A stretch of DNA of 64,000 nt. It comes from a virus. Lineage: Duplodnaviria; Caudoviricetes. Under the pieces are notes generated by a model, which was not told the origin of the DNA, made no database searches, and saw only the letters and a list, made by a program, of their open reading frames with translations. Positions within the stretch are counted from its first letter, which is position 1. Each line of letters starts with the position of its first letter. This document shows positions 13,126 through 63,469 of the stretch, one piece after another. The translations under genes were made by a program, and so were the position numbers. The DNA lies in IMG/VR virus record IMGVR_UViG_3300025707_000003, positions 32,001-96,000 of that record; one strand, 5' to 3'.

Positions 13126-13512
13126 TTAAAGACTTTTAAGATAATCTAAAATGTCTTCATCTCTTCTTAATCCGTTTGGTTGGCCTTGGTCATGGTAGAT
13201 AATCTCGATTAAGTCGGTTGCGATAAGCACCTGGTCTTTTCTCGGTCTTTCCATAGACATACCAACTACATAACTATGATCAATGTCATCACTAGTTGAG
13301 AAGTGGTTAAAGATTTCGCCTTTTGACATGAAATAAGTTTTCATTCTGCGACCTCCACCATCTTGACCGTACTTATCTTTAAATGGTGCGAAGAGGGTAA
13401 ATTGCCCTTGCCCAAGAGCTTCCCTAGCTGGGTGCTTTCGGCCTGCTTGTCTTTCAAGTCTTGCAATCCTTGACTCAAGATTACGAATAACTTCGGTTGC
13501 TGATCTTCTCAT
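13126..13512 (-). CDS. Leader-family protein (MRRSATEVIRNLESRIARLERQA), 128 aa
   Basis: Start reassigned to ATG 13512; conserved UTR and class A motif at 13560-13572. Confidence 0.8.
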   Translation of the reverse strand: MRRSATEVIRNLESRIARLERQAGRKHPAREALGQGQFTLFAPFKDKYGQDGGGRRMKTYFMSKGEIFNHFSTSDDIDHSYVVGMSMERPRKDQVLIATDLIEIIYHDQGQPNGLRRDEDILDYLKSL

Positions 13513-13613
13513 GGTTTTCTCCATTTTGTTTGTGGTTAAAGAGATCACTTATGAGAACCTATAAAAGAACTATTAAAACAAGAAATAGATAAAAGTAGGA
13601 ATAAGGGGTGGGG

Positions 13614-13650
13614 ATGGCTATCTCTTATCTTGAACGAGTCGAGGACTAAG
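13614..13650. repeat. 37 bp direct repeat copy 2 (duplicate of SbcD-like gene end)
   Basis: atggctatctcttatcttgaacgagtcgaggactaag lying between two leader cassettes. Confidence 0.95.
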
Positions 13651-13653
13651 TTA

Positions 13654-14121
13654 TTAGGCTTTTGTGATGTCATAGTCTGCACGAGCCTTTAGATTGCTCT
13701 TTAGGATGCTCTGTAGTTTATTAGCACAAGAGTTATAACTTTGGCTCTCACATCCAGTAGCAACAAATACTTGATAGAGACAACTCCAACAACCACCTTG
13801 AAGATTGTCTGATCCGTCATCAAGACCCCAACTGATTTGTAGTTGACCCCCCCCTATATCAACATATGCGTATAGGCTTGTTCCTCTCTCAATGTCTCCT
13901 TCCTCGATTCCTTCTTCAAGACTGGATTTAGCAGACTCAATATCACTGTTAACTTCTGCAATAATCTCTGCAAAAGTCATGTCGGTGTTTCGATCTCTTG
14001 GGTGACCTGTGTACCAACCTGTACTGATCTTTAGACCAGAATGTTTGTTGGCAGTACGACCTTCAAGACGAGCAATCCTCATCTGAAGGTTGCGAATAAT
14101 TTCTGATGCTGATCTTTTCAT
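13654..14121 (-). CDS. Leader-family protein (MKRSASEIIRNLQMRIARLEGRTA), 155 aa
   Basis: Start reassigned to ATG 14121; conserved UTR; class A motif 14169-14181 directly after the RecD2 stop. Confidence 0.8.
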   Translation of the reverse strand: MKRSASEIIRNLQMRIARLEGRTANKHSGLKISTGWYTGHPRDRNTDMTFAEIIAEVNSDIESAKSSLEEGIEEGDIERGTSLYAYVDIGGGQLQISWGLDDGSDNLQGGCWSCLYQVFVATGCESQSYNSCANKLQSILKSNLKARADYDITKA

Positions 14122-14181
14122 GGTTTTTCTCCATTTTGTTAAGGTTAATGAGATCACTTAAGATCAATTATAAATAAACTA

Positions 14182-16260
14182 TTAAAATCTATACCTCAAC
14201 CTAGAGTACCTAAGACCACTAGACGAGTTTCCTACACAAATCGCTACTGCGTCCTTATCTCCAATCAGCACTGCCTTATCCTTCGCTCTCGTGACAGCGG
14301 TGTAGAGCAAAGAGCGTTGTAAGAGGTTTGAACTATGTTCGGTGGTCATAGGCATAATGATGGTGTCGTACTCAAGACCTTGGCTCTTATGAACAGTCGT
14401 AGCATAAGCGAGTCTCAATAGCTTCCTTACTTGATCAGAAGGGATGTCTACGATTTGATCTTTTACACCTTTGATGAGTACGCTCACGCTTGTTTTATCA
14501 ATCGACCTAATACGACCTATATCACCATTATAAACATTGAGGTCATACTCATTCTTGGTGATCATAACTCGATCACCTACTCGGATTGAATCTTTACCTA
14601 CCCGAATGAAAGCACCTCCTATATCGGGGTTCAAAGCAGATCTAAGCTCTCTGTTAAGATTAGTAACACCCACTTTGCCATGATGAGTAGGACTAACCAC
14701 ATGGAAATCTATTTGATCCATGTGAAGCTCTTTACACCGTCCCACAATTTCATCGAGAATGTCTTGTGAGGTATAACGATCAATGAACTGATAATCTTTA
14801 TTGTGTTGTGGCACTTCACCTGCATGGATCTTGTGAGCGGCAATTGTCACCCCACTCCCCTCTCCTTGCCTAAAGATTTCTGTAAGGTGTTCTCTCGGTA
14901 CTGCGTTCGACTCAATAAGTTCCGAAAGAACAAACCCTGCACCAACAGGTGGAAGCTGTGCTATATCACCTACCATGATGACTCGACACTTGGGTGAGAT
15001 GCCTTTCATCACACGCCACATGAGGTGTAAGTCAATCATAGAGGATTCGTCTATAATGACAACTGACTCTGGTCGAGGATTCTGAGGATTATGTCTCCAT
15101 AGTTCTCGACTTGGGTCATTGCTATTGCCAATACCTTTAACTCCACTTTCTTCATCTTTCTTAACCCCTTCATAATCAGACTTGTCCTTCTTATCCTCTG
15201 AGGGCAATCCTGCACCGAACGCTCTATGGACTGTGAAAGCGTCCATATTGGTTAATGCACTAGCTCGTTTAGCGGCTATTCCTGTGGGGGCGATGAGTAA
15301 GATACTTTCTTTACGATCACGCAAGATTTTACAGAGCGTATTAAGGATAGTCGTCTTACCTGTTCCTGGTAATCCTGTCACGATTGAAAAAGGCTCTATA
15401 AGACCCTGTTGGATTGCTTTGAGTTGTGTATTGGTCAATGGGTAGCGTGAATATGCTTTAATGTCATCAATACTTATTGATTGAAGCATACTATTCACTC
15501 GGAGAGGAGATTTAATTTCTTCGGCAACAGCTACCTCCATTTTATGATAAGAAGGCAAATAAAGGGCAATAGAGGAGTCTTGTGATATCTTATCTACCAC
15601 AATGCGAGTCGGCTTCGCCTCTTTCATCGACTTGATGACTTGACCTATCTCTTTCGGGTTCGTCAAGCCTGTGAGGATAGCAGTATCTTTGAATACCGTA
15701 TTTGTGTCTAAATAACAATGACCTTGATACACACCTTGAAGCATAGACCAAAAGATAGAGGCTTCAACTCGACCTTCATTTTCTGGGTCAAAGTCCTTTT
15801 TAAGAAGCGTCTTAGCAATTTCATCAGCACCTTGAAAAGAGACACCTTTATAAACCAACGACCAAGGGTTTTTAGCAATAGAACTCGGAGATATTTGAAC
15901 ATCATTCCAAATAGAGTTTATGATGTTCAAAGGCACTCCTGCTTCAGACAGACTTGAGATAACCTCGATGGACTCTTGCATAAGAGGGTCAGACCAATCT
16001 GCCCAACTGTAGAGAGCCGACCCTTTAAGATACTTAGGGTTAATCGGATTACGAACTATATCAAGGTTCTTCTTCCCATTACGCTTGTCGAGGACTTCCT
16101 TACCTTGAAAGGTAAATACTTGACCTTTTGAAACAGGGCCTGCAATCTTACCTTTGACCACGATAGGCTTTGTATCGGCCTCAGAAGCTACGATACACCT
16201 TAGAATATAATAAGGTGGGTTGGCAAAAATCTGCCCCAACACTTTGGCAACATAAAACAC
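14182..16260 (-). CDS. recD2: RecD2-like (RecD/TraA family) SF1B helicase
   Basis: Walker A GLPGTGKTT, APTGIAAKR, IIDESSM, GDIAQLPPVG, AYATTVHKSQGLEY, LLYTAVTRAK; HhH-like N-terminal region. Confidence 0.85.
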   Translation of the reverse strand: MFYVAKVLGQIFANPPYYILRCIVASEADTKPIVVKGKIAGPVSKGQVFTFQGKEVLDKRNGKKNLDIVRNPINPKYLKGSALYSWADWSDPLMQESIEVISSLSEAGVPLNIINSIWNDVQISPSSIAKNPWSLVYKGVSFQGADEIAKTLLKKDFDPENEGRVEASIFWSMLQGVYQGHCYLDTNTVFKDTAILTGLTNPKEIGQVIKSMKEAKPTRIVVDKISQDSSIALYLPSYHKMEVAVAEEIKSPLRVNSMLQSISIDDIKAYSRYPLTNTQLKAIQQGLIEPFSIVTGLPGTGKTTILNTLCKILRDRKESILLIAPTGIAAKRASALTNMDAFTVHRAFGAGLPSEDKKDKSDYEGVKKDEESGVKGIGNSNDPSRELWRHNPQNPRPESVVIIDESSMIDLHLMWRVMKGISPKCRVIMVGDIAQLPPVGAGFVLSELIESNAVPREHLTEIFRQGEGSGVTIAAHKIHAGEVPQHNKDYQFIDRYTSQDILDEIVGRCKELHMDQIDFHVVSPTHHGKVGVTNLNRELRSALNPDIGGAFIRVGKDSIRVGDRVMITKNEYDLNVYNGDIGRIRSIDKTSVSVLIKGVKDQIVDIPSDQVRKLLRLAYATTVHKSQGLEYDTIIMPMTTEHSSNLLQRSLLYTAVTRAKDKAVLIGDKDAVAICVGNSSSGLRYSRLRYRF

Positions 16261-16374
16261 GAGAAGTCCTTTCTCTACTTAGGAGATCATTTTCTTGTGT
16301 TATATGATTTAACCCTAATACATCTAGCTGTTCGAGAGGAACTGCTCCATAGTAGTTGAACTCATCTTAGCCCC

Positions 16375-16971: not shown

Positions 16972-17025
16972 GTTCGTTCTCCTTTAAGGTATTATAAACA
17001 ATCAACAGTAATAAAGGATCTACAA

Positions 17026-17907: not shown

Positions 17908-17909
17908 AG

Positions 17910-31565: not shown

Positions 31566-31856
31566 TTACCTTCCGAACAAACACCTAGATTTTACCTCAT
31601 TGAGCATGGATTCAATCTTATTGAACTGATCTAAAAATTGTTGGTAAGGTAGAAGCACACTTTCACCACTAAGACCATCTAGCATTTCTGAAGCGTCCTC
31701 AAGTAGTTTTTGAACCTCACGATTTTCTCTAAGAAATTCATGACCCACAAAATTCTCTTTGATTGAATAGAGTCTACCTAGATTTTCATCTAGGTTTTCT
31801 TTTACCTTTTGAAACATCTTAGTCTTTGAGAGATGGCGATCAGCGTTTTTCACCAT
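31566..31856 (-). CDS. Hypothetical protein
   Basis: 96 aa ORF overlapping the upstream stop. Confidence 0.55.
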   Translation of the reverse strand: MVKNADRHLSKTKMFQKVKENLDENLGRLYSIKENFVGHEFLRENREVQKLLEDASEMLDGLSGESVLLPYQQFLDQFNKIESMLNEVKSRCLFGR

Positions 31857-33589
31857 CCTTTTTTTTTATTCCTTCTTAGTGAAGCTCTTCTACGACCACC
31901 AGTCATAGCACCATCAAGTTTACGCATAAGTTTCTGTAGACTCTTAATTGCATTGCGAGTACGAACCTCAATAGGTTGACGACCTGCACGACCAGTTCCT
32001 TGGATACGGTCAAGTACGAGTTTAATTTCTGAAGCACTCTCTTGTGAAAGCTGATCTCGGTTAGTGCTGAGTGAACGCTGTGTTGACATAAGTTGTGCAA
32101 CAGCCCTCTCATCAACGATACCGTCCTCGTTAAAAGATGTAATCGCCGCACGAATGACAGAGATAGTATCTGTGATCATACCCTGTGCGTAAGCGATGTC
32201 TTGGTTCTGCCAAGGTCCAGGTGTTGAAGTAAGACCGATAGGGTATTTACCATAGAGAGGTCCACTTTTACGATGTTCACCACGCTGTGAGAACGCAGAG
32301 ACATAACCCTTTTTGAGCTTAGACTTGAGTTGCTTTGCAAAAAACATCTCGGCATCATAAGAGTCCATAAATGATTTGTCAGAACTGCGACCAGTTGAAC
32401 CGAGGCGACCATAAAGAATTTCTACTGTTGAACCATTGATGACCATCTCGTAGAACTTGCTCTTGTTCTCAGACTCACCGATGAGATAAAGCATACAAGA
32501 GGTAGCGTCAGCGATTGAGCGACCATCGTGATAAGCAGTGCCTGAGCGAACTCCTTCAAGTTGTGGTTTACCTGCGGCTTCACGAGTCATGCGAGCTGTA
32601 CGGTTGAGGTTTCCTTCAAGACGAGCAATCCTCATCTCAAGATTTCTGATTACTTCACTAGCTGATTTACGCATAGTGTTTCCTTTCTTTAGAAGCCTTC
32701 TGACTTCATCTTTAGAATAAGAGTTGTTGAGCCTACGCTCATTTCTGTAGATGAGATGACGCAATCGCTTACGCTCCTCATCATTGAGTGAATCAATGCC
32801 TCTACGCTGACCTTTATTGATAAGCATAAAGTCATCTCGTGATAGATTAACATTGGATTTAAGATCTGCAAGTAACTTAGACTCTGGAGAGGACTGACTA
32901 GCAATGATCTCTTCAACTACATTCATTTGTCTTTCAGAGAGCTGAATACGATCTTCAGCTTTAGACTTGAGTTGAGCCAAGAAACGATTACGAGGGTCGA
33001 GTTCAAGTGCTTCTTCAATACGAACGAGCTGATTGTTAGGCTGATTTCCAACCATCTGTACAGCATCAAGCTTTTCGTCTATAACTTCAAGTTGTCTCTC
33101 GGAAAGCTCTCGCCCTCCCATAAGCTGGTCATAAAGGCTTCTGTAGAAACGATTTGTTGGTTGCATTGCGATTAACTCATTGAGTTTCATCAAGATTTCT
33201 TGGTCTGGGTCTTCAATACGCTCTTCAGTATCGATTAGGATCTCTTCTACTCGATACCCAAGAGGTTCTCCGTGTTCAAGATACTCAAGAATACCTTTCC
33301 ACCAATCGCTGTTTGGATTAAGTGCAAGTACTGCTTGCACACGATCAATACTCTCCATATCTCGAAATTTCCCTGGGAAGTCTACCTTTAACTGTATTAA
33401 ACCCTCCCGTATAGACATACCGTCAATGCTTCTCACAAGAGTCACAAGTACAGAGTCCCCTTTTTTATTCAACTTGACTTCAAACTCATCAAAGTTGATC
33501 AAGGCATTGTCTCTCCTAGACTCCATTTCAAGCATCTCTAGTGCTTCGCCTACTGTGGTATTGTAGAATATAATCTGGTTTTCTTTCAT
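31850..33589 (-). CDS. Multidomain protein with internal leader (ATG 32674) followed by a WGR domain
   Basis: Internal MRKSASEVIRNLEMRIARLE; WGR-like SKFYEMVINGSTVEILYGRLGSTG...KLKKGY; class A motif at 33621-33633. Confidence 0.75.
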   Translation of the reverse strand: MKENQIIFYNTTVGEALEMLEMESRRDNALINFDEFEVKLNKKGDSVLVTLVRSIDGMSIREGLIQLKVDFPGKFRDMESIDRVQAVLALNPNSDWWKGILEYLEHGEPLGYRVEEILIDTEERIEDPDQEILMKLNELIAMQPTNRFYRSLYDQLMGGRELSERQLEVIDEKLDAVQMVGNQPNNQLVRIEEALELDPRNRFLAQLKSKAEDRIQLSERQMNVVEEIIASQSSPESKLLADLKSNVNLSRDDFMLINKGQRRGIDSLNDEERKRLRHLIYRNERRLNNSYSKDEVRRLLKKGNTMRKSASEVIRNLEMRIARLEGNLNRTARMTREAAGKPQLEGVRSGTAYHDGRSIADATSCMLYLIGESENKSKFYEMVINGSTVEILYGRLGSTGRSSDKSFMDSYDAEMFFAKQLKSKLKKGYVSAFSQRGEHRKSGPLYGKYPIGLTSTPGPWQNQDIAYAQGMITDTISVIRAAITSFNEDGIVDERAVAQLMSTQRSLSTNRDQLSQESASEIKLVLDRIQGTGRAGRQPIEVRTRNAIKSLQKLMRKLDGAMTGGRRRASLRRNKKKGW

Positions 33590-34740: not shown

Positions 34741-36376
34741 ACCTCGATCTAAAGCAACCACTCGTAAGCTCAGTCCTGCTGAGATGAAATCGAGGGTGAA
34801 GATAGCGATGACTACAGGTGGCTCTATGATGGGGTCGGGTGGAAACTTCTATTCTCCAGAGCTATCGACAGACTTTCTTGAGCTACCTCAAAGTCAAGAC
34901 GAACAACGCAACTACTTTAGGTTCTTCTATCGCACTGACCCATTCGTTGGTCAGGCGATTGACCTACATACAGAGCTACCCCTCTCTAAGATCAGATTAG
35001 GATTACCTAAAGCTCGCAATAGAGATATGGCGTATGAAGCTCTAAGGTTTTGTGAAAAGTGGTCTAAGCGAGTAGGTCTTCTTCATCGGTTAATAGAAAT
35101 CTTACATGAGTTCAATCTACTTGGTGAGGCGTTTGTCTTTTGTGAAGACAATAACCCCGATGTGCCTCAAGAGATCACACATAGTGGTCGAAATGTCCTC
35201 AAAGAAGATGGCGAAGCGTTTACCGAGTGGACTGAGTATGAGGACGCAGATGAACGAGCTTTCAAATGGCTTAAAAGGAATTATAAAGGTTGGACTGGTC
35301 TTAGAATCCTTCCACCAGAGCAAGTTCACATGGAGAGTTTTCCTTTCACTAGTGAGAAGATCATCCAACTTATTCCCGATAGTAAAACTCGTGATGTAGT
35401 TGAACGAGCTTCGGTTAATGACCCCTCTGCTCTTCGTATCGTGGACTCTATGCCAGGTGATGTTGTTGAAGCTATCCGAGATGGTCGCAACATTGATCTC
35501 AACACCGATCCCGATCAAGGTTCATTCGTTTACTATATGGCTCGTAAGAAATCACAATATGAGCCTCGTGGACACTCTATGCTTGAGCGTTGTCTTCGTG
35601 TCCTCGTTTATCGAGATAAGTTAAGACAGGCACAAACCTCAATCGCTTCAAGACACATGACTCCTATCCGTCTTGTTTATGCAGAGGATATGGATGCGTC
35701 TGATGTCGAAGAGTTGAGAGATCAAGTGGATCTTGCATTACAAGACCCAGACTACTCGATCATCGCTAACTTTCAAGTATCTTGGGAAGAAATGGGTGCA
35801 GACTCTCGCTTATTAGAACTATCGGGTGAATATGACATGACCGACCGACAAATGTATGCTGGTCTAGGTGTTACTGAATCTCTGTTGTCGGGTGAGTCTA
35901 GTTATAGTGGCGACAGGATCAACCTAGAAGTCATCAACACACGCTATATGCTTATGCGTGAGGTTCTTCAAGAGATGGTTGAGGAGAACATCTTGAAGCC
36001 AATGTGTAGACGAATGGGTTTCGTTGAAGAAGATGAAGATGGGGATGAAATTGTCGTACACCCAACTCTTAGCTTCACTAGACTTGGATTGCGAGATAAC
36101 CAAGATACCTTTGATGCTCTCTTTAATCTGTATCAGAAGGGTTCATTGGACATTGATGTCATCTTAGAACTTCTTAATGTCGATCCTATGACCACTAAAG
36201 CTAAACTTGAGCGTGATATGTGGACACTCAACGATAGTCAGTTTAATGAGGTTCTTAGAGGGGTCTATGGTGAAGCTGGTCGTATGTTAGCCGAGAATAC
36301 CGAAGCGATTGAACTCATCGCTAAGAATCTTGGCTTAAAGTACAACCCACCAGAAGAAGAAGGTGGTCGTTTCTAA
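34700..36376 (+). CDS. Portal protein (putative)
   Basis: 558 aa, helical; FYRTDPFVGQAIDL N-terminal motif and size are consistent with large-phage portals; downstream of a class A motif. Confidence 0.65.
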   Translation: MSEEIDAKPVGKIKPRSKATTRKLSPAEMKSRVKIAMTTGGSMMGSGGNFYSPELSTDFLELPQSQDEQRNYFRFFYRTDPFVGQAIDLHTELPLSKIRLGLPKARNRDMAYEALRFCEKWSKRVGLLHRLIEILHEFNLLGEAFVFCEDNNPDVPQEITHSGRNVLKEDGEAFTEWTEYEDADERAFKWLKRNYKGWTGLRILPPEQVHMESFPFTSEKIIQLIPDSKTRDVVERASVNDPSALRIVDSMPGDVVEAIRDGRNIDLNTDPDQGSFVYYMARKKSQYEPRGHSMLERCLRVLVYRDKLRQAQTSIASRHMTPIRLVYAEDMDASDVEELRDQVDLALQDPDYSIIANFQVSWEEMGADSRLLELSGEYDMTDRQMYAGLGVTESLLSGESSYSGDRINLEVINTRYMLMREVLQEMVEENILKPMCRRMGFVEEDEDGDEIVVHPTLSFTRLGLRDNQDTFDALFNLYQKGSLDIDVILELLNVDPMTTKAKLERDMWTLNDSQFNEVLRGVYGEAGRMLAENTEAIELIAKNLGLKYNPPEEEGGRF

Positions 36377-36389
36377 TAGTTTATTTATG
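36377..36389 (+). promoter_or_regulatory. Class A motif immediately after the portal stop, heading a leader cassette
   Basis: TAA|tagtttatttatg followed by gtgatcttaagtgatctctttaacc. Confidence 0.6.
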
Positions 36390-36439
36390 AGTGATCTTAA
36401 GTGATCTCTTTAACCACAAACTTGAATGGAGAAACCATT

Positions 36440-36769
36440 ATGAGAAGATCTGCAACCGAAGTTATTAATGACCTTGAGATGAGAATCGCAAGGCTTGAAA
36501 AAGAAGCAAAAGAAGCAAATGATCTTCTTTTTTCGATAAATGAGGATGAGTGGGCAATGCTTGCAGAACTGCACGAAAATTTATCGAGCCGCGGCCCTTT
36601 ACAAGATCTAAAGTCAGGTTTGCCAAGTCATGTTCAGAAAGATTTTTCTAAAGTCTTACAACGAGGTAAGAACGATTATGTTACAAAGGAACTTTTAAAT
36701 TACTCAAAGGCGGTACGAGCCGAGCAATCTAAGTTAAAAGATTCACTCGGCAATATTCTGGGTATCTAA
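36440..36769 (+). CDS. Leader-family protein (MRRSATEVINDLEMRIARLEKEA), 109 aa
   Basis: Start reassigned to ATG 36440; conserved UTR. Confidence 0.8.
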   Translation: MRRSATEVINDLEMRIARLEKEAKEANDLLFSINEDEWAMLAELHENLSSRGPLQDLKSGLPSHVQKDFSKVLQRGKNDYVTKELLNYSKAVRAEQSKLKDSLGNILGI

Positions 36770-42314: not shown

Positions 42315-42382
42315 ACTTTTTGTAGTCCTTTTATAGCCTCTCCTTTGGTGATCTCATTAACCCGAACCAATGGAGAAAAACC

Positions 42383-43147
42383 ATGAGAGCAGTACACATC
42401 TACGATTTTGACGGGACTTTATTTAGAACTCCACAAAGACCAAACTGGTATGACAATAACTTGGATGGGGTTTGGCATCAAAACCCATTGAGTTTTGCAG
42501 AACCTTGTCTACCTAAAGGTGAGCGTTGGGTTAAGTCTATTGTTTCAGAAGCTAAGAGAAGCATCGCCTCAAAGGATGTTTACACCATCGTCCTTACAGG
42601 GCGTAAGACACCTTTTCAAAGAGTAGTTGAGGATCTTTTAAGATCAAAAGGATTAAAGTTTGATGAGGTCATCTTGAAAGACAGAGGAGATACTGAGTCT
42701 TTTAAAAACAGAGTAATAGATCGCCTTATGGCACTGTTTCCTGATGCAGAGATCCACATCTGGGAAGATAGACATAATCATTTAAAAGTATTCATGGATC
42801 ACATCGAGATGAGAGGTGGCGTTGGAATCCCTCACGCAGTACCGCAAAACTACTCGGTGGCTGAATGTTCTGAAGAGGAGTTTAGGGATATGAGAAGATC
42901 AGCATCAGAAACTATTAGAAATCTTGAGCATCGCATTGCTCGACTTGAGGGGTCTAGGACAGCTTCAAGCGATGTTCGTAGAGCTGGCAAGAAAGTTATT
43001 GAAGCAATAGACAAGCTACAGGAAGAGCTTGAGAAGATGCCTTCCTTCAACAGTGATGAGTCTTACTATGAGGATTTAAGAGAGCGTTTTGAGGCACTTC
43101 ACCTTAGCGTCCATAAAGAGGTTCAGTTCATCACAGGTGCTTACTAA
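42383..43147 (+). CDS. HAD (Swiss Army Knife-like) phosphatase fused to an internal leader (ATG 42890) and a small helical domain
   Basis: IYDFDGTLFRTP, LTGR, IWEDR; internal MRRSASETIRNLEHRIARLEGSRTAS; conserved cassette UTR at 42348-42385. Confidence 0.8.
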   Translation: MRAVHIYDFDGTLFRTPQRPNWYDNNLDGVWHQNPLSFAEPCLPKGERWVKSIVSEAKRSIASKDVYTIVLTGRKTPFQRVVEDLLRSKGLKFDEVILKDRGDTESFKNRVIDRLMALFPDAEIHIWEDRHNHLKVFMDHIEMRGGVGIPHAVPQNYSVAECSEEEFRDMRRSASETIRNLEHRIARLEGSRTASSDVRRAGKKVIEAIDKLQEELEKMPSFNSDESYYEDLRERFEALHLSVHKEVQFITGAY

Positions 43148-52258: not shown

Positions 52259-52261
52259 AGC

Positions 52262-57135: not shown

Positions 57136-57621
57136 ATGAACAACAATTTTGTTCCAGTTCCCACAGTAATGGAAGCCATGACAGGTTTCCTCTGTAGTAA
57201 GGCTTTTCTTATCTATCTAATTATATTTGGTGTTCTATTTTTTATATGGCTTTTTATCAAAAAAGAGAGGAGAGAAGAAGCTGATCTCTATCGAGCATTA
57301 GTGAGAGAAGTGAGAGAAAACCAAAATCTTAAGCGAAGACTAGGACAGACACCAAATGAAGAGCAAGATGATATGTACTCCAACGAGGTACTCACCTCGT
57401 CATATGATTTATGCGAATCATATACCAAAGATATCAAATGGAGAAACGCAGGTCTCAGACATGATATAAAAATACTAAACATCGAGGATAAAGAGACACT
57501 ATTGAAAGCGAAGGCTCTACTTTTGTACTTAACTACCTCGGAGAAACAAACCCCACAATTTATTGAGGGTGTTCAGAAAACGCTCAAGGTTATTACGATC
57601 CTAGAAAAGAGTGTAAGATGA
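57136..57621 (+). CDS. Hypothetical membrane protein
   Basis: 161 aa with one TM helix (FLIYLIIFGVLFFIWLFI); AAGGAG RBS. Confidence 0.65.
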   Translation: MNNNFVPVPTVMEAMTGFLCSKAFLIYLIIFGVLFFIWLFIKKERREEADLYRALVREVRENQNLKRRLGQTPNEEQDDMYSNEVLTSSYDLCESYTKDIKWRNAGLRHDIKILNIEDKETLLKAKALLLYLTTSEKQTPQFIEGVQKTLKVITILEKSVR

Positions 57622-58529
57622 GAGCGATACCATGCCCTATATCTAAAGAGCGTTTTGAAGACCTCTATACTAAACAATACTTAACAGAGAAGCAGATTAA
57701 CGAGTTGTTGATTTCTGAGGGTATTGACTCAAGCATGAAGCGTATTGGTAGTTGGAGACTACGCTATGGGATTGAAACGGTATCTAAGTTTGATCGTCTT
57801 GAGCTACCAAAGATTGAGGGGGAGTTAAGATCAATCCTTATTGGTTCTATGCTAGGTGACGGTCGTATTGTTTTTCGTACTAACGCTTCACACTATGAGG
57901 AACGACACGCACCCAATCAGAAAGAGTATCTTGAGTGGAAGCAAGAGAAGTGGGGCGTGTGGTCATCTGGAGATTTAGCAGTAGCGATGAGTAGGGAGTT
58001 CCCTAGTTATATCTTTCGCACCCACGCTCACCCTATGCTAAATGAGTATCGAGACTTGTTCTATGAGGAGAGGGATAAGGGGTGGAAAGTTGTTAAGTCT
58101 GATGTTATAGACCAAGTAGATGAGTTAGCTTTGGCTATGTGGTATCTCGATGATGGTCATGCAGGACATTGGCCTATGATTTGTTTTGGGGCAAAACAGG
58201 GGAGTCGAGCTAACGCTTACTTAATCTTTGAGAAGTTTGGTTTAGCCCCTAACTGGACACATAAAAAAGGGGAGACAGGAGAGTTCCACTTTAAGGGTGA
58301 GAACGCTTATCGTTTCATTGAGATCATTAAGCCTCATGTACCCGATTGTATGTCTTACAAGTTGGACTTTGGTTTTCAAGGTCGTAACAATGCTATCAAG
58401 AAAAAGATGGACAAAGGCATCTTAGAGGACTTAAGGAGTAAGGGGTGGGGTAAGCGTAGGATAGCTAGGTATCTTGATGTAGGGGCGAGTACAGTGGGTC
58501 GTTGGATGGTTAAGTTTGGAGTGGAGTGA
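57618..58529 (+). CDS. Free-standing LAGLIDADG homing endonuclease with HTH extensions
   Basis: LIGSMLGDGRI and LAMWYLDDG motifs; terminal HTH-like segments. Confidence 0.8.
   Translation: MRAIPCPISKERFEDLYTKQYLTEKQINELLISEGIDSSMKRIGSWRLRYGIETVSKFDRLELPKIEGELRSILIGSMLGDGRIVFRTNASHYEERHAPNQKEYLEWKQEKWGVWSSGDLAVAMSREFPSYIFRTHAHPMLNEYRDLFYEERDKGWKVVKSDVIDQVDELALAMWYLDDGHAGHWPMICFGAKQGSRANAYLIFEKFGLAPNWTHKKGETGEFHFKGENAYRFIEIIKPHVPDCMSYKLDFGFQGRNNAIKKKMDKGILEDLRSKGWGKRRIARYLDVGASTVGRWMVKFGVE
58474..58529. repeat. 56 bp direct repeat copy 1 (3' end of LAGLIDADG gene)
   Basis: Copies at 58942-58997 (3 mismatches), 59583-59616 (34 bp, perfect) and 61341-61358 (16/18). Confidence 0.95.
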
Positions 58530-58600
58530 GGACTTTGATAGTTTATTTATAATAGATCTTAAGTGATCTCTTTAACCAAGAATCCAAATGGAGAAACATT

Positions 58601-58915
58601 ATGCGTAGATCAGCATCAGAAATCATCAATAACCTTGAGAATAGGGTTGCACGACTTGAATCAAGTTCTAACCCTCGTCAAGCTAAAGATGCTTATGATA
58701 TTTGGAGAAGGAAAGTAGATCAGTACATCATTAAGGAAATGCGGGTCACTTTTGAATACGAAACAAAAGACGGTGAACACTCCGAAGACTATATAAACAG
58801 TCTTTGGCAAGATGGAGTTAAGCCATCACGAGCCTCCAAAAATATCATGCAGAAATTTCAATGGTTAAAGTCAGCGGGTATGCTAAAGCATCATAAATAT
58901 TATGATGCTATTTGA
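58601..58915 (+). CDS. Leader-family protein (MRRSASEIINNLENRVARLE), 104 aa
   Basis: Class A motif at 58539-58551 and conserved UTR. Confidence 0.8.
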   Translation: MRRSASEIINNLENRVARLESSSNPRQAKDAYDIWRRKVDQYIIKEMRVTFEYETKDGEHSEDYINSLWQDGVKPSRASKNIMQKFQWLKSAGMLKHHKYYDAI

Positions 58916-58941
58916 ATGGTTATTGAAAGGGATCTAGGGAT

Positions 58942-58997
58942 TTGATGTAGGGGCGAGTACAGTGAGTCGTTGGATGGTTAAGTTTGGGGTGGATTGA
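58942..58997. repeat. Direct repeat copy 2 of the LAGLIDADG gene end
   Basis: ttgatgtaggggcgagtacagtgagtcgttggatggttaagtttggggtggattga. Confidence 0.95.
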
Positions 58998-59044
58998 TTT
59001 GTAGTTTATTTATTAGTGTCTATTATCCATAAAGGAGAGACACC

Positions 59045-59575
59045 ATGAGACTTACTATCGCTTTACTCTTATCTGTCTTGCTCACCTCTACGATTTCTCA
59101 CGCTGAAGAGAATAACTGGGAAGTGAGTCTAGGCACAACGCAAATGTTCATCGGTGGGTACGAAGAGGGTTCAATACCTGTACCTACGAACTCTGCCACA
59201 TTCATCTTATCTCGTAAGATGTATGAGAGCTTTGCATTATGGGTTGTGTTCAATCTACCTACCTCCTCTAACAAAAGGTTTACAGAGGAAGGTTTACTTG
59301 TAGAGTCTCAGACACCACCTAGTCTTATGCTAGGTGCGAGTTATGAGTTATTGGGCTATGAGATCTCCGACAAGAAATCTTTAGGTCTTGATGTTGGTGC
59401 TTCAGTCGGACACACGATTACGCTTAATGGTCAGTTCTTCCCTGTGGGTGCGTTTCGTTTGAAGTTCGTTAAAGACGAGGACAGCACTATGTATGCAGGG
59501 GTGACAACCTCACCATATAATCCAGATGGTGATTTGGTTTGGGGTTTGATCTATGGCATGGGGTATAGATTTTAA
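59045..59575 (+). CDS. Secreted protein, possibly an outer-membrane beta-barrel
   Basis: Sec signal peptide (…TISHA), alternating beta-strand pattern, C-terminal YGMGYRF with terminal Phe; class A motif at 59002-59014. Confidence 0.6.
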   Translation: MRLTIALLLSVLLTSTISHAEENNWEVSLGTTQMFIGGYEEGSIPVPTNSATFILSRKMYESFALWVVFNLPTSSNKRFTEEGLLVESQTPPSLMLGASYELLGYEISDKKSLGLDVGASVGHTITLNGQFFPVGAFRLKFVKDEDSTMYAGVTTSPYNPDGDLVWGLIYGMGYRF

Positions 59576-59582
59576 TGTGAGT

Positions 59583-59616
59583 GCGAGTACAGTGGGTCGT
59601 TGGATGGTTAAGTTTG
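59583..59616. repeat. Direct repeat copy 3 of the LAGLIDADG gene end
   Basis: gcgagtacagtgggtcgttggatggttaagtttg. Confidence 0.95.
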
Positions 59617-59684
59617 AGGTTTTGTAGTTTCTTTATAATAGATCTTAAGTGATCTCTTTAACCTTAATCAAATGGAGAACCATT

Positions 59685-60164
59685 ATGAGAAGATCTGCAT
59701 CAGAAATCATTAATAACCTTGAGACTCGTATCGCAAGACTTGAAAGACAAGCATATCACCCTGATGACCCACGATCACAAGAGATGGGTGGTTATAGAGA
59801 GCCTGCGGGGGGAGAGTGGCATGAGCCTGAGATTCTTACTGGAAAAAAGTTTCTCAGGTGGTTACAAAATGATCGGGAGATCAAATCCCATTTAAATAAG
59901 AGCGTGTTTATAGATGTTTCTTCATCTACTATCACCTTTGACACATCTTGGTGGTCAAAATATACAAGAAATGGTAATACCTTGGATGGGATTCTATACA
60001 GCATTTGGGACAATCCTATGTTGGGGCGGGATTGGAAGATAAGAGGGAGAAATGTGACTATCAAGGGTTTGTGGGGAGACCTTGTGTACGGGGAGGGTGA
60101 TATTTATGCACAAGAAACCTTTACCATCAAGAAGAGTCGTGGTTCTATCGTTTTAAAGGCATAG
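59685..60164 (+). CDS. Leader-family protein (MRRSASEIINNLETRIARLERQA), 159 aa
   Basis: Start reassigned to ATG 59685; class A motif at 59625-59637 and UTR. Confidence 0.8.
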   Translation: MRRSASEIINNLETRIARLERQAYHPDDPRSQEMGGYREPAGGEWHEPEILTGKKFLRWLQNDREIKSHLNKSVFIDVSSSTITFDTSWWSKYTRNGNTLDGILYSIWDNPMLGRDWKIRGRNVTIKGLWGDLVYGEGDIYAQETFTIKKSRGSIVLKA

Positions 60165-60349
60165 TCTATCTGTGGCCTTAATTAAGTTATCATCTCTGAT
60201 GATGTTTTAAACAAAGATGAGAGACAAAAGGTTTACACTTAGCCACAAGTGGGGAGTTTTTGTTCCTAGTGGAAGATAGATTTGAATAAGTTTAATAGTT
60301 TGTTTATATACCTTTTCTTGAACACACTTAACAAAGAAGGATATTCATT

Positions 60350-60715
60350 ATGAGAAACTTACTCACAATCGCACTTATTGCTCTTACCTTTATTGCTTGC
60401 GACAAGGATAAAGAAGAAACCACACCTAACGATGGTGGTATGGAAGCTGGGGCTACCGCAGGATCAGAGGCAGGATCTGAAGCAGGAACTGAAGCAGGGT
60501 CTGATGCAGGAACTGAAGCAGGGACAGAAATGGACATGATGGTTATGGGTGGTTCTGAAGAGACTACAGACATGGAAATTACTGAAGGTGGTACTGAGTC
60601 TGATATGGGTATGGACGAAGCGGGTATGGAATCTACGGACATGGAAGTAGTTGAGGGTGGTTCAGATGAATCTACGGATATGGGATCTGATACCGAAGCT
60701 GGAACTGAGGGCTAG
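60350..60715 (+). CDS. Low-complexity acidic lipoprotein
   Basis: Signal peptide with lipobox FIAC; GSEAGTEAG and DM repeats; class A motif at 60296-60308. Confidence 0.7.
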   Translation: MRNLLTIALIALTFIACDKDKEETTPNDGGMEAGATAGSEAGSEAGTEAGSDAGTEAGTEMDMMVMGGSEETTDMEITEGGTESDMGMDEAGMESTDMEVVEGGSDESTDMGSDTEAGTEG

Positions 60716-60856
60716 TAGTCTTGCTCGTCTAAATGGTCTTTAAGATCTTAGAATGAACCTCATTTCCCTTTGGGATTTGGGGTTTTTCCGTTTATAGTTT
60801 GTTTATAAGTGATCTTAAGTGATCTCATTAACCTTAAACAAAATGGAGAAACCATT

Positions 60857-61291
60857 ATGAGAAGATCAGCATCAGAAATTATTAGAGGACTTGAGAATAG
60901 GGTTGCACGACTTGAAAGACAATCCTCAACCAACCGTAGGGCTAGAAAGTACGGGAAAGCGATCACAGACGCTGTTCGGATGCTTAAGAAAGAGGTGGGC
61001 GATGCAGATGCGTCTGAGATTGAAGTGGTGGTGGTAGAGCTAGTCCATTATAAATTTGAGGATCTGCTTAGAGAGATCGAGGACAGAGGTCCTAATGCTG
61101 AAGAGTACTATGAAAATGAAGTTGTAAATAAGTACCCAGCACTGGTCAAAGCAGGTATTCTATCCGCTGAAATATGGATACAACATCCCAAAATAATCCG
61201 AGACCGATACAGGTTGAAAAACTTAAAGGAAGTTAATCTCTTCGCTGAGTGCATTGGGTCAAGAAAATTGGCTGAGGGGCTCAGTTTCTGA
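60857..61291 (+). CDS. Leader-family protein (MRRSASEIIRGLENRVARLERQS), 144 aa
   Basis: Start reassigned to ATG 60857; class A motif at 60795-60807 and UTR. Confidence 0.8.
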   Translation: MRRSASEIIRGLENRVARLERQSSTNRRARKYGKAITDAVRMLKKEVGDADASEIEVVVVELVHYKFEDLLREIEDRGPNAEEYYENEVVNKYPALVKAGILSAEIWIQHPKIIRDRYRLKNLKEVNLFAECIGSRKLAEGLSF

Positions 61292-61358
61292 TCCCTATTT
61301 AATCTTACAAGATGGGGTCTAAGTTAAGGGATAAGATGCTGTTTGGGGTAGAGTGAGG

Positions 61359-62480
61359 TTAATGGTCGATCCCTTGTTCACATAAAGGACAAGTATCTCC
61401 AATCTCGCACCTAATAGTATCAAGCTCCTCTGTGAGCCTTTCTACCTCTTGTTCGGTGCAAGATATACGACTGAATAGATCAAAGCGTTCAGAAGCGATT
61501 CTGAGGTCTTTTTCGACTTGCGAATCTACATTAGGTAAGTCTACATTAAGTTGTGTGATTTGTAAGATGGTTTGATCTAATTGATTTCTTTTGTGCAAGA
61601 CCCGCTCAAGTGGTGCAGGGTCTTTCACCTCTACATCTGGGATAGGTGGGAATGAGGTTAAGCCAACCTCTACGATACCTTCCATGATCCTTAGTCTGTT
61701 CTTTTCTATACGAACACGCTCAAGGTCTTTAATCCCCATAAAGTCATGTGGGTTCACTTGTGGGAATTTTACATTTTGCAAGGTGGATACGAACTGTGTT
61801 TGAAACATAAAGATTTCTCTCTTTTCTTTGATTGCCCCTAGCTTTTTAACTCTTTCTTCAAGAGTCTTAATCGACCCCTCAAGTGTACTTATATGATTGA
61901 TCGTTTCCCCTACTTCGTCCAACTCGTTAAACTTAGGTAAACGATCCCGCTCAGATACTAAATCTTCATGCTTTACTTTAATGCGTTGATTAAGGTTCTT
62001 AGTTTCGTTCCTAGAGAGACTTGACGCTTTCTCTAGGGCTTCTATTGTCTTTACATCAGATAAAGCACTAGAGAGGACACTAGGTGGCATATCAAGCAAG
62101 AAGATTTGTTCAAACTGTCGAGCGATCTGAGGCCATACAGTTTTTCCATCGACATCTACCGAAACAATGTTCAAGTCATCAAGTTCATCGGGAGTTTTTG
62201 ACCCTACTTTATCTAACTTTTGTCCGTTGATCTCATATTTATTAACCCCTTTACCCTTTTCCCAAATTACCGAGTTGCCATCATCAAAGTTGATGGAGAC
62301 TTTTGATGACTTTTCACCTTGCCTTACATGAGAATATCCCCTTGCATTAGAGAAAGCACCTGCTATGGCTCTTGCACAAGCAGACTTACCTGTATTATTA
62401 GCCCCTGTAATAACAGTAAGACCTTTAACTTCAAAGTCAGCGTGTTTGATAGATTGGTAGTTTTCTATTTTGACTTGCAT
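61359..62480 (-). CDS. SbcC/Rad50-like ATPase, N-terminal half (Walker A to zinc hook)
   Basis: KIENYQSI, GANNTGKS, QIARQ Q-loop, coiled coil, terminal CPLC; no signature or Walker B motif. Confidence 0.75.
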   Translation of the reverse strand: MQVKIENYQSIKHADFEVKGLTVITGANNTGKSACARAIAGAFSNARGYSHVRQGEKSSKVSINFDDGNSVIWEKGKGVNKYEINGQKLDKVGSKTPDELDDLNIVSVDVDGKTVWPQIARQFEQIFLLDMPPSVLSSALSDVKTIEALEKASSLSRNETKNLNQRIKVKHEDLVSERDRLPKFNELDEVGETINHISTLEGSIKTLEERVKKLGAIKEKREIFMFQTQFVSTLQNVKFPQVNPHDFMGIKDLERVRIEKNRLRIMEGIVEVGLTSFPPIPDVEVKDPAPLERVLHKRNQLDQTILQITQLNVDLPNVDSQVEKDLRIASERFDLFSRISCTEQEVERLTEELDTIRCEIGDTCPLCEQGIDH

Positions 62481-62532
62481 GGTGTCTTGTCTCCCATTCC
62501 CTTTATATGAATGATACCGAGTTTAGGTTTTT

Positions 62533-62549
62533 GTAACCCCTTAAATATA
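62533..62549 (+). promoter_or_regulatory. Class B motif, putative early promoter
   Basis: gtaaccccttaaatata upstream of 62582. Confidence 0.5.
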
Positions 62550-62581
62550 CCCTTATGTAACTCTTGAAAGGAGACTAAGAC

Positions 62582-62806
62582 ATGACAGATCAAAAGGCAC
62601 AACAACTAAGGGATGCATACAATAAGTTCGTTGACCACCCCGATGGTCATTGGAAAGGTTCTGCCATTGCAGTGGTCAACCAAGCTCAGAGATCAATCGT
62701 TCGGGAAGCGATGGACTTTATGGGTTCAATCGTTGACCAAGAGTTAGAACTGAGTGATGGTAATATTGCTCTTTACAGTAAAGGATATTGGGCACATGGA
62801 TTTTGA
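62582..62806 (+). CDS. Hypothetical protein
   Basis: 74 aa; AAGGAG RBS. Confidence 0.65.
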   Translation: MTDQKAQQLRDAYNKFVDHPDGHWKGSAIAVVNQAQRSIVREAMDFMGSIVDQELELSDGNIALYSKGYWAHGF

Positions 62807-63026
62807 GGTATATAAACTAACCGATGCTGAACTTGGGGCAGTAGACTTTTGTAGAGGTCGCTACCTATGGGCTGACATCGTAGCTCAAAACTTAGAGGGT
62901 GATACGCTTACCCTAGATAACATGACTCAACATGAGATGAATGAGGCTATTGAGGTAGAGGGCATTCCTCTCTTAGATGATCGCACTGATCTTTTTCGAG
63001 GACTTATCTCTCTTGAGCCTGTGTGA
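62796..63026 (+). CDS. Hypothetical protein
   Basis: Start reassigned to ATG 62796, overlapping the upstream stop. Confidence 0.6.
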   Translation: MDFEVYKLTDAELGAVDFCRGRYLWADIVAQNLEGDTLTLDNMTQHEMNEAIEVEGIPLLDDRTDLFRGLISLEPV

Positions 63027-63094
63027 ACTTTAATAGTTTATTTATAGATTCTCATAGGAGTCTCTTTAACCTTAACTTGAATGGAGAAACCATC

Positions 63095-63469
63095 ATGAGA
63101 AGATCAGCTAGTGAAATCATCCGTAACCTTGAGGGTCGTATTGCTCGTCTTGAAAAATCGGCTCGTCCGAATGACATAGGTATACATAAAGTAGTCAACA
63201 AATTGGCATATATACATCAATTTTCTTCGGGGTCCATGGTTCTATCTGTGCCTAGTAGAAATGCTGACGAAGTGGTAAGGGCAATCAAGGAGATTGGTGT
63301 GGGAGCAGAGAATCCATTTGAGGAAAACGATATCACTTATAAGAAAGATAATAAAGGACACATGGTTACATTCACTGTTTCATCACCCGAATGGTTAAGA
63401 ACACATGATGTGGTTCTAAGCCTAAAACTAGATGGTTTTTTCCTAGTGTCTCACGATGACTTTAGATGA
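63095..63469 (+). CDS. Leader-family protein (MRRSASEIIRNLEGRIARLEKSA), 124 aa
   Basis: Start reassigned to ATG 63095; class A motif at 63034-63046. Confidence 0.8.
   Translation: MRRSASEIIRNLEGRIARLEKSARPNDIGIHKVVNKLAYIHQFSSGSMVLSVPSRNADEVVRAIKEIGVGAENPFEENDITYKKDNKGHMVTFTVSSPEWLRTHDVVLSLKLDGFFLVSHDDFR

What the first reader, a model, noticed from the sequence alone, without database searches (positions are those of the whole stretch)
13512..63097. Conserved ~90 bp DNA head (promoter + small hairpin + RBS + leader) acts as a portable expression module
Seen: the element TAGT-N3-TTTATA...GATCTTAAGTGATCTC[AT]TTAACC..AA..AATGGAGAAA[A]CCAT[TC]ATG recurs with GTGATCTCWTTAACC at 13548(-), 14157(-), 36401, 42348, 58563, 59649 and 60819, with a variant near 63058. 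The AATGGAG core is also found before 11636 and 12071. The consensus can form AGATC-ttaagt-GATCT, and the 63047-63064 variant AGATTC-tcatag-GAGTCT keeps pairing despite substitutions, which hints at covariation. Non-coding conservation exceeds what protein selection explains. Known analogue: PeSL promoter/stem-loop cassettes that shuffle modules in T4-type phages, but those are early promoters without a fused peptide leader. Inference: the element is either the unit of mobility or a recombination hotspot for swapping cargo.
Basis: partly seen in the sequence, partly recalled or inferred. Interest (0 to 1): 0.7.

Follow-up and report, generated by a model that had tools for sequence, protein, structure and literature searches.

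The report
Common front end for phage cargo
A huge uncultured phage starts many small, unrelated late genes with the same about 125-base promoter, leader RNA and 20-residue tag, and related phages swap the genes behind it by recombination, much as T4 does on a smaller scale.

Summary
GTGATCTCWTTAACC occurs exactly 7 times in the window against 0.34 expected. There is a variant at 63058 and a ninth copy elsewhere on the 83-kb contig.

The "head" is four stacked blocks:
- The phage's general late-type promoter, TAGT-N3-TTTATA, which also sits before portal and tail-fibre genes.
- A 47-50 nt 5' leader holding a box found only on this gene class.
- A GGAG ribosome-binding site.
- 20 codons for the tag MRRSASEIIRNLExRIARLE, present 11 times in the window and in 1012 protein clusters in public data.

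Instead, its 5' arm is often the reverse complement of codons 1-4.

Comparison with relatives shows at least seven insertions, deletions or replacements of cargo, with one breakpoint inside or beside the head. No recombinase gene was found on the contig. In 24 contigs carrying one identical cargo protein, the neighbouring genes are mostly the same.

So the head is a shared expression-and-address module and a substrate for homologous recombination, not a self-mobile unit. Capsid targeting by the tag is inferred, not shown.

This scan had already noted the tag in other windows of the same genome.

The parts
13453..13577 (-). Head 1: promoter 13560-13572, box 13534-13548, SD 13516-13525, ATG 13512, leader codons to 13453. 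The gene runs 13126-13512 (128 aa).
14062..14186 (-). Head 2: promoter 14169-14181, box 14143-14157, SD 14126-14135, ATG 14121. The gene runs 13654-14121 (155 aa).
36372..36499 (+). Head 3, directly after the portal gene: promoter 36377-36389 (TTTATG variant), box 36401-36415, SD 36425-36434, ATG 36440. The gene runs 36440-36769.
   Evidence: Relative L122 has different cargo here.
42318..43147 (+). Head 4 with a split module: promoter 42323-42335, box 42348-42362, SD 42369-42378, ATG 42383. A HAD/PNK-like domain follows, then the leader peptide internally at 42890-42949, then cargo ending ...GAY.
   Evidence: (phrog_415). In relative L088 the leader follows the head directly at this site.
58534..58915 (+). 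Head 5 plus cargo: promoter 58539-58551, box 58563-58577, SD 58587-58596, ATG 58601, stop 58915. The whole cassette is missing in the 97-100% identical relative L068.
59620..60164 (+). Head 6 plus cargo: promoter 59625-59637, box 59649-59663, SD 59671-59680, ATG 59685. In L068 the cargo is replaced from about 59711 (codon 9) to about 60215.
60790..61291 (+). Head 7 plus cargo: promoter 60795-60807, box 60819-60833, SD 60842-60851, ATG 60857. In L068 the leader DNA and cargo are replaced from about 60855 to about 61366.
63029..63469 (+). Head 8 (variant box 63057-63071) plus cargo: promoter 63034-63046, SD 63080-63089, ATG 63095. L024 keeps the promoter and box but lacks the SD, leader and cargo. 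L124 and L057 lack the whole cassette. L085 has other cargo.
11664..12163 (-). Leader gene with a variant promoter and a degenerate box (ATAATCTCAGCAACC); ATG 12071. Its cargo is homologous to the C-terminus of the 42383 protein. The cassette is absent at this site in relative L141.
10764..11650 (-). Leader gene with only SD (11641-11650) and leader, and no promoter of its own; ATG 11636 (290 aa). It lies just downstream of the 12071 gene.
32615..32674 (-). Leader peptide inside the 579-aa ORF 31850-33589(-), upstream of a WGR domain. The same in-frame arrangement is seen in relatives.
   Evidence: P0141
58474..59627 (+). Three copies of a 56-nt direct repeat (D2: 58474-58529, 58942-58997, 59572-59627) lying just before late promoters. 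Copies 1 and 2 flank the cassette that L068 lacks.

Best explanation
The about 125-bp head is the standard front end of one class of late accessory genes in a group of huge, uncultured, phage-G-related phages. It is four blocks that usually travel together. (1) The phage's own late-type promoter, TTT(A/G)TAGTTTNTTTATA, which also precedes tail-fibre genes, the portal region and the region upstream of the capsid gene. (2) A 47-50 nt 5' leader. Its first 8-12 nt vary and are often the reverse complement of codons 1-4. Its middle holds the box (A/G)GTGATCTCWTTAACC, seen only on this gene class. (3) A strong SD, AATGGAGAA. (4) Twenty codons for an amphipathic helix, MRRSASEIIRNLExRIARLE, fused to unrelated small proteins. 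Shown here: the anatomy, the block-wise conservation, the restriction of the box to tagged genes, and the exchange of cargo between relatives with breakpoints in the head. Inferred: the motif is a late promoter; the tag addresses cargo to the assembling head and is removed by the prohead protease, like the T4 capsid targeting sequence; the pairing between the mRNA 5' end and the start codon, together with the box, tunes translation or mRNA stability (roughly even odds). The head does not move by itself. Because it is repeated many times per genome, ordinary homologous recombination between copies and nearby repeats inserts, deletes, replaces and fuses cargo.
For: Repeats: 7 exact boxes against 0.34 expected. 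Promoter: the motif has 29 hits against 6 expected, and in 20 cases on the contig it sits 27-50 nt upstream of a co-oriented start, including the tail-fibre-like gene starting at 7121 and the ORF just upstream of the portal gene; searches also place it before the tail-fibre gene at 10672 and upstream of the capsid-gene region (55340); functions. Sigma-70-like sites are depleted, 6 against 17.9. A second motif, GTAACCCCTT, marks other genes such as the SNF2 helicase. Tag: 11 copies on proteins with no other similarity, and 1012 clusters at 50% identity, almost all with the tag at residues 1-26. Selection on non-coding blocks: conserved blocks alternate with variable spacers. Arg codons 2 and 3 are AGA in 96-97% of copies, while Arg 10, 15 and 18 use synonymous codons freely. 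UTR length varies by non-multiples of 3. Box specificity: among exact box matches in the fetched IMG/VR loci, none with promoter context precedes an untagged gene. Spacer and start complementarity: 18 of 48 distinct spacers hold a Watson-Crick complement of 6 nt or more to positions -3..+14, against 1.4 for shuffled spacers; for 9 nt or more it is 4 against 0. Duplex energies point the same way. Compensating cases include GCTAATCTT with AAGATTAGC, and the 42348 copy, where both the ORF start and the spacer differ from relative L088 and still pair. Six of 8 window copies pair the spacer with codons 1-4 in their minimum-energy fold. Recombination: against L068 (97-100% identical flanks) there is one cassette present or absent between 56-nt direct repeats, and two cargo replacements starting in leader codon 9 and at the ATG. 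L024 has a deletion starting right after the box. Further swaps, an inserted domain and an inserted cassette appear against L122, L088, L141 and L085. In-frame double-tag chimeras exist in public data.
Against: The promoter, its timing and whether the spacer is transcribed at all therefore remain inference. The head is not an obligate unit: 45 of 113 tagged genes lack the box, and a 100%-complete 376-kb relative has at least 24 tag starts but only 4 exact boxes. About a third of spacers (the CAATAAG type) show no complementarity to the start, whole-UTR fold z-scores are modest, and the copies are related by descent, so the statistics overstate independence. Nothing shows that tagged proteins enter the capsid or are cleaved. 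In this window the RIARLE motif is found only in the tags themselves. Cargo exchange is not fast: 24 contigs with one identical cargo protein were shown as a single place because their neighbouring genes are mostly the same.
Confidence: 0.65

Rival explanations
1. The head is the recombination site of a self-mobile cassette, moved by a dedicated recombinase (integron-like) or excised as small circles (PeSL mini-circle-like).
For: Cassettes are gained and lost as units. One is flanked by 56-nt direct repeats, which could give a circle on excision. A LAGLIDADG homing endonuclease gene (57618-58529) lies beside the array.
Against: Breakpoints lie at different places: in the pre-promoter repeat, right after the box, at the ATG, in codon 9, and after the leader. 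That pattern fits homology-driven exchange, not one crossover point. No tyrosine or serine recombinase was found on the 83-kb contig, which is only 27% complete. Each cassette has its own promoter, and no common 3' site was found. The neighbourhood is mostly the same in the 24 contigs read.
Confidence: 0.08
2. The conserved non-coding part is a structured RNA whose core is the small hairpin AGATC-loop-GATCT proposed by the first reader.
For: The hairpin is the minimum-energy fold in 2 of 8 window copies. The 63047-63063 variant can still pair.
Against: RNAalifold finds no consensus pair in 68 copies. 43.9% of cells pair against 42.8% shuffled, and the three outer pairs are unpaired in 47-57 of 68 copies. 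The closest ortholog of the variant copy changes the 5' arm and loses the pairing (L083). No Rfam family matches.
Confidence: 0.04
3. This is an ordinary paralog family. Tandem duplication was followed by fast divergence of the C-terminal parts, and the 5' ends stayed alike because of recent ancestry or gene conversion.
For: Several copies are adjacent (13126-14186 and 58534-63469). One cargo type (...MPSF...GAY) occurs twice in the window.
Against: Identity to near-identical relatives drops from 96-100% to random (about 40%) at sharp points, which is replacement, not divergence. Cargo lengths and known domains differ (HAD/PNK, WGR, none). Heads within the genome are only 61-79% alike over 126 nt, with variable spacers between conserved blocks, so there is no recent homogenisation. 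The tag sits on 1012 clusters.
Confidence: 0.07
4. The module is as described, but the peptide is not a capsid address. It is a docking or oligomerising helix for some other destination, such as the tail, a membrane complex or a host target, or a shared regulatory degron.
For: The peptide has a heptad-like pattern (I9, L12, I16, L19) typical of coiled coils. It also works in internal positions, unlike a classical N-terminal signal. Two tagged genes lie next to tail-fibre genes (10764-12071).
Against: The genes share the promoter class of head and tail genes. Several sit directly after the portal gene or in the array just downstream of the capsid gene. A prohead-protease-like gene is present. 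Glu-ending motifs (ASE, NLE, RLE) fit proteases that cut after Glu (PMC5694885). A second half-tag at domain junctions in chimeric proteins looks like a processing site.
Confidence: 0.16

Closest known systems
PeSL (promoter-early stem-loop) cassettes of T4-type phages RB49 and phi1 (Arbiol et al. 2010, PMC2839356)
   Same: A short regulatory cassette running up to the SD and start codon is repeated before many small genes of unknown function in plastic regions. Recombination between copies explains insertions, deletions and replacements between close relatives.
   Different: PeSLs carry sigma-70 consensus early promoters and a G/C-rich stem-loop terminator. Here the promoter is a non-sigma-70 late-type motif shared with structural genes, no conserved stem-loop exists, the module extends 60 nt into the coding sequence, and mini-circles were not tested.
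Capsid targeting sequence of the T4 internal proteins IPI, IPII, IPIII and Alt (Mullaney and Black 1996, as described in PMC3012670 and PMC5694885)
   Same: A conserved N-terminal peptide of 10-20 residues sits on otherwise diverse proteins. A prohead protease that cuts after Glu is present. The cargo set varies widely between relatives.
   Different: No sequence similarity was looked for or seen. There are far more tagged proteins here (at least 24 in a 376-kb genome, 1012 clusters). The tag also occurs internally. Packaging and cleavage are untested. The tag here is tied to a conserved 5' UTR.
Integron gene cassettes
   Same: Rows of small, unrelated, exchangeable genes lie between conserved genes.
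   Different: There is no integrase, no attC-like 3' site, every cassette has its own promoter, and breakpoints are not at one fixed position.
Phage T7 gene 10 leader with its epsilon translational enhancer (recalled from memory, not verified here)
   Same: A conserved A/U/C-rich element, TTTAACCTTAA here against TTTAACTTTAA in T7, lies a few bases upstream of a strong GGAG SD on a highly expressed late gene.
   Different: This is a resemblance of about 10 of 12 bases only. No function was tested, and the box also has a 5' half (GTGATCTC) with no T7 counterpart.
Cargo-loading peptides of encapsulins
   Same: A short peptide tag directs unrelated cargo into an HK97-fold shell.
   Different: Encapsulin tags are usually C-terminal and bind the shell protein directly. 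Here the partner is unknown.

Membership tests
PeSL cassettes (PMC2839356) | Promoter matching the sigma-70 consensus (-35 and -10), acting early | tested here: not met
   No conserved -35 element is present. Sigma-70-like sites number 6 against 17.9 expected in 55-64 kb, and only one overlaps a head. The motif is shared with structural genes.
PeSL cassettes (PMC2839356) | Stable stem-loop within the cassette acting as a terminator or attenuator | tested here: not met
   RNAalifold finds no consensus pair. The proposed hairpin pairs no better than shuffled. The terminator scan finds none at the heads in 55-64 kb. Single copies (42348, 36401) have an upstream hairpin, but this is not general.
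PeSL cassettes (PMC2839356) | Recombination between copies causes insertions, deletions and replacements between close relatives | tested here: met
PeSL cassettes (PMC2839356) | Formation of small circular DNAs by exchange between neighbouring copies | not testable with these tools
   This needs read-level data.
T4-type capsid targeting sequence | Short conserved N-terminal peptide on otherwise unrelated proteins | tested here: met
   12 invariant positions lie in the first 20 residues and there is no similarity beyond them. The tag is at residues 1-26 in nearly all of the 150 best of 1012 clusters.
T4-type capsid targeting sequence | Tagged proteins are incorporated into the prohead | not testable with these tools
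   This needs virion proteomics of a cultured relative. No deposited phage carries the tag.
T4-type capsid targeting sequence | Tag removed by the prohead protease after a Glu | tested here: inconclusive
   A protease-like gene lies at 52262-53707 (phrog_18299). E7, E13 and E20 are conserved. Half-tags at internal junctions are suggestive. No cleavage data exist.
Integron cassettes | Site-specific integrase, plus an attC site at each cassette's 3' end | tested here: not met
   PF00589 and PF00239 give no hit on the contig, which is 27% complete. The 3' junctions share no motif.
Known RNA families (Rfam 15) | Match to a curated covariance model | tested here: not met
   Only one sub-threshold chance hit was found, and it is not at a head.

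The most novel reading that the evidence does not exclude
The head is a dedicated plug-and-play effector-loading system of megaphages. A late promoter and a 5' leader, in which the mRNA's 5' end pairs with the start codon and displays a protein-binding box, set the time and level of expression. A cleavable helical address tag then loads any gene placed behind it into the capsid for injection. This would give these phages a recombining library of over a thousand deliverable proteins, comparable to secretion-system effectors that share one signal.
Probability: 0.35. Interest if true: 0.85.

Novelty: new variant of a known kind. Interest (0 to 1): 0.6.

Why it matters
If the tag is a capsid address, these abundant uncultured phages carry a very large, fast-changing set of injected proteins. 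These would be likely anti-defence or host-takeover factors, and they could be listed simply by searching for the tag. The module would also serve as a natural design for packaging foreign proteins into large capsids. The tight link between one 5' UTR and one peptide tag, and the complementarity between the mRNA's 5' end and the start codon seen across late genes, point to a form of late-gene translational control in huge phages that I found no description of in the papers searched. The comparison with relatives shows that the T4-style way of shuffling accessory genes through repeated regulatory cassettes also operates in an unrelated group of giant phages.

Tried and rejected
1. RNA structure of the head. 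RNAalifold on 68 copies gave no pairs. The first is not conserved. The second is 89% pairable but shows no covariation, so it says nothing either way.
2. Rfam search of 57-64 kb: nothing relevant.
4. Nucleotide search of 58.4-63.5 kb against deposited phages: no match. tblastn of the tag against the same collection: no match.
5. The closest deposited genome by capsid protein is LR745208.1 (89% aa). It has neither the box nor the tag nor the promoter near its capsid gene, so it could not serve for orthologous-site comparison.
6. Complex prediction of the tag with the major capsid protein returned "no answer". This is no evidence for or against binding.
7. Pfam and PHROGs on cargo proteins: no families, apart from HAD/PNK-like and WGR on the two fused proteins. 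A homolog search with the 59685 cargo found only itself and one 75% relative.
8. The idea that the in-frame GTG of the box starts translation was rejected, because the distance to the ATG varies by non-multiples of three.
9. GATC (Dam) sites as the reason for conservation were set aside, because GATC is generally over-represented in the window.

Full report
WHAT THE DNA IS. The window is the reverse strand of bases 5058-69057 of an 83,364-bp linear virus contig, which CheckV rates 27% complete. It carries these genes:
- portal, 34700-36376
- prohead-protease-like, 52262-53707
- HK97-type major capsid protein, 56074-56952
- tail-fibre-like, 2373-7121(-) and 7187-10672(-)
- RecD-like and SNF2 helicases and a ribonucleotide reductase
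The capsid protein is 89% identical to that of an uncultured 485-kb phage, 47% to a 309-kb Tunturiibacter phage and 39% to Bacillus phage G. There are 2097 relatives in metagenomes at E of 1e-10 or better, on contigs up to about 300 kb. This is therefore a fragment of a huge, abundant, uncultured phage.

OBSERVATION. The 15-mer GTGATCTCWTTAACC is exact at the seven stated places, against 0.34 expected. The copy near 63058 is a one-deletion variant. A ninth copy lies outside the window on the same contig.
- Each copy is followed by AATGGAGAA, 3-7 bases and an ATG.
- The encoded proteins share MRRSASEIIRNLExRIARLE and nothing else: 12 invariant positions in the first 20 residues, and 22% mean column identity overall.
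- A six-frame scan finds 11 tag copies.
- Two copies are internal. One lies behind a HAD/PNK-like domain in 42383-43147. The other lies in front of a WGR domain in 31850-33589(-).

ANATOMY. From IMG/VR I collected 113 distinct tagged-gene starts. Of these, 68 carry the box with at most 3 edits. In their alignment, conserved blocks alternate with variable spacers.
- The promoter motif, (A)AGTGATCTCWTTAACC, AATGGAGAA and ATGAGAAGATCAGC each have a majority base in 80-99% of copies.
- The 8-12 nt after the promoter, and the 5 nt before the ATG, are at 25-60%.
- Spacing differs by non-multiples of three, so the region is non-coding.
- Arg codons 2 and 3 are AGA in 96-97% of copies, while Arg 10, 15 and 18 use CGN and AGR freely. 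The first codons are thus constrained at the nucleotide level.
This pattern argues for selection on each block rather than hitch-hiking or recent gene conversion. Heads within the window are only 61-79% alike over 126 nt.

PROMOTER. TAGT-N3-TTTATA is not special to these genes.
- It has 29 hits against 6 expected.
- In 20 cases on the contig it lies 27-50 nt upstream of a co-oriented start. These include the tail-fibre-like gene starting at 7121, the ORF just before the portal gene, and the start at 48608, which lies upstream of the protease gene.
- Searches also place it before the tail-fibre gene ending at 10672 and at 55340, upstream of the capsid gene.
- Sigma-70-like sites are depleted.
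- A different motif, GTAACCCCTT (4 hits against 0.05 expected), precedes other genes such as the SNF2 helicase.
I therefore read it as the phage's late-class promoter. This is inference, because no transcript ends could be mapped.
- Tagged genes have a notably uniform UTR of 47-50 nt.
- Among exact box matches in the fetched IMG/VR loci, none with promoter context precedes an untagged gene.
- The converse does not hold. 45 of 113 tagged genes lack the box. A complete 376-kb relative has at least 24 tag starts spread over the genome but only 4 exact boxes.

THE HAIRPIN.
- RNAalifold predicts nothing.
- 43.9% of cells pair against 42.8% after shuffling, and the outer three pairs are open in most copies.
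- Single-copy folds are no more stable than shuffles, with z from -0.5 to -1.5.
- No Rfam family matches.
Something else showed up instead.
- The variable spacer right after the promoter is often the reverse complement of the start of the ORF. TCTTCTCAT(AAG) pairs with (CTT)ATGAGAAGA over up to 12 nt. TGATCTT pairs with AAGATCA.
- Of 48 distinct spacers, 18 hold a Watson-Crick complement of 6 nt or more to -3..+14, against 1.4 for shuffled spacers. Four hold 9 nt or more, against none.
- Where the ORF start differs, the spacer sometimes differs to match. GCTAATCTT goes with AAGATTAGC. At 42348 both the spacer and the ORF start differ from relative L088 (which has GGTTTTTCAT with ATGAGAAG), and the window's GCCTCTC can still pair with GAGAGC.
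- Six of the eight window copies pair the spacer with codons 1-4 in their minimum-energy fold.
- Untagged late UTRs show the same tendency towards their SD or start: 20% at p of 0.05 or less, with striking cases.
- About a third of spacers show none of this. The copies are not independent. Whether the spacer is transcribed is unknown. I give the pairing roughly even odds of being functional.
- The function of the box remains open. Two leads come from memory and are untested. Its 3' half resembles the T7 gene 10 "epsilon" enhancer, and GTGATC is complementary to the 3' end of 16S rRNA.

MOBILITY OR RECOMBINATION. Relatives give a clear answer.
- Against L068 (97-100% identical flanks), the 480-bp cassette 58478-58958 (promoter, UTR, tag and cargo) is absent and is bounded by 56-nt direct repeats.
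- In L068 the cargo behind head 59649 is replaced from codon 9 to about 50 nt past its stop.
- In L068 the tag DNA and cargo behind head 60819 are replaced from the ATG onward.
- L024 keeps the promoter and box of head 63058 but has lost the SD, tag and cargo. L124 and L057 lack that cassette, and L085 has other cargo.
- After the portal gene, L122 has the same head but different cargo.
- At 42348, L088 has the tag directly after the ATG, so a HAD/PNK domain sits between the ATG and the tag in this phage.
- The 12071 cassette lies between a UTR and the next SD and is missing in L141.
- Public proteins include in-frame chimeras with two tags or a second half-tag. One ends with the same C-terminus as the 42383 protein.
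Breakpoints thus fall in every conserved block, not at one site. No tyrosine or serine recombinase is on the contig. The 3' junctions share no motif. The 24 contigs read that encode one identical cargo protein were collapsed to a single place because their neighbouring genes are mostly the same. This is homologous recombination between dispersed repeats, not a self-mobile element.

THE TAG. A profile of the 30 N-terminal residues finds 1012 clusters at 50% identity. Nearly all of the 150 best have the match at residues 1-26, on proteins mostly 80-300 aa long. One cargo tested is essentially an orphan.
- The tag has a heptad-like hydrophobic pattern and conserved Glu at positions 7, 13 and 20.
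- Prohead proteases of T4 and of the phiKZ-like giant phages cut after Glu. T4 uses 10-20-residue N-terminal capsid targeting sequences on its diverse internal proteins (PMC3012670, PMC5694885).
- The tagged genes share the promoter of structural genes, several sit beside the portal and capsid genes, and a protease-like gene is present.
Together this makes a capsid address that is later cut off the best reading. It remains unproven.

COMPARISON AND VERDICT. In behaviour the head matches PeSL cassettes (PMC2839356). It fails their two defining features, the sigma-70 early promoter and the stem-loop. In logic the tag matches the T4 capsid targeting sequence, at a far larger scale and tied to a conserved UTR. 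I rate it a new variant of known kinds. Earlier notes of this scan on other windows of the same genome reached the same reading of the tag. My additions are:
- the dissection of the DNA head into separable blocks
- the failure of the proposed hairpin
- the spacer/start-codon complementarity
- the nucleotide-level breakpoints

Noticed in passing
window 1-64000: Short palindromes are avoided to an extreme degree. ACGT occurs 0 times (237 expected), CCGG 0 (124), GCGC 0 (124), CGCG 5, GGCC 28 (124) and AATT 125 (453). GATC is over-represented, 413 against 237. This looks like strong selection against several restriction enzymes.
   Followed up: no
window 58474-58529, 58942-58997, 59572-59627: A 56-nt direct repeat occurs in three copies just upstream of late promoters. 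The first copy overlaps the last 18 codons of the homing endonuclease gene. Copies 1 and 2 bound a cassette that a near-identical relative lacks.
   Followed up: partly
window 57618-58529: A LAGLIDADG homing endonuclease gene sits between the capsid gene and the cassette array. It is present in L068, L024 and L085 but absent in L057. It might stimulate local recombination.
   Followed up: no
L153 (LR745208.1) 10715 and 18342: A phage whose capsid protein is 89% identical lacks this tag, box and promoter. Instead it has another shared N-terminal peptide, MTTLRSKLIRLAH..P.LRP.LLPLLKEA, on two proteins near its capsid gene. This may be a different dialect of the same idea.
   Followed up: no
window 19235, 37839(-), 48527(-), 62533: A second conserved motif, GTAACCCCTT (4 hits against 0.05 expected), lies before non-structural genes such as the SNF2 helicase. 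It is probably another promoter class.
   Followed up: partly
window 51691-51737, inside ORF 49253-52258: A late-promoter motif with an SD and an in-frame ATG lies inside the 1001-aa ORF. The C-terminal part may also be made as a separate protein.
   Followed up: no
window 53744-55321: A 525-aa, very acidic protein with an EF-hand match and the repeated segment AR(V/L)AR..LADNAVQVGTD lies between the protease and capsid genes. It is a candidate scaffold.
   Followed up: no
P0003, P0004, P0005, P0007 (public proteins): Some proteins carry two or three tags, or a second half-tag (RIARLEK), at internal domain junctions. This looks like cassette fusions, or polyproteins with processing sites.
   Followed up: partly
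window 61359-62480(-) and 63580-64000: An AAA_23/AAA_21-type ATPase gene and a DnaX-like clamp-loader gene frame the variable cassettes.
   Followed up: no
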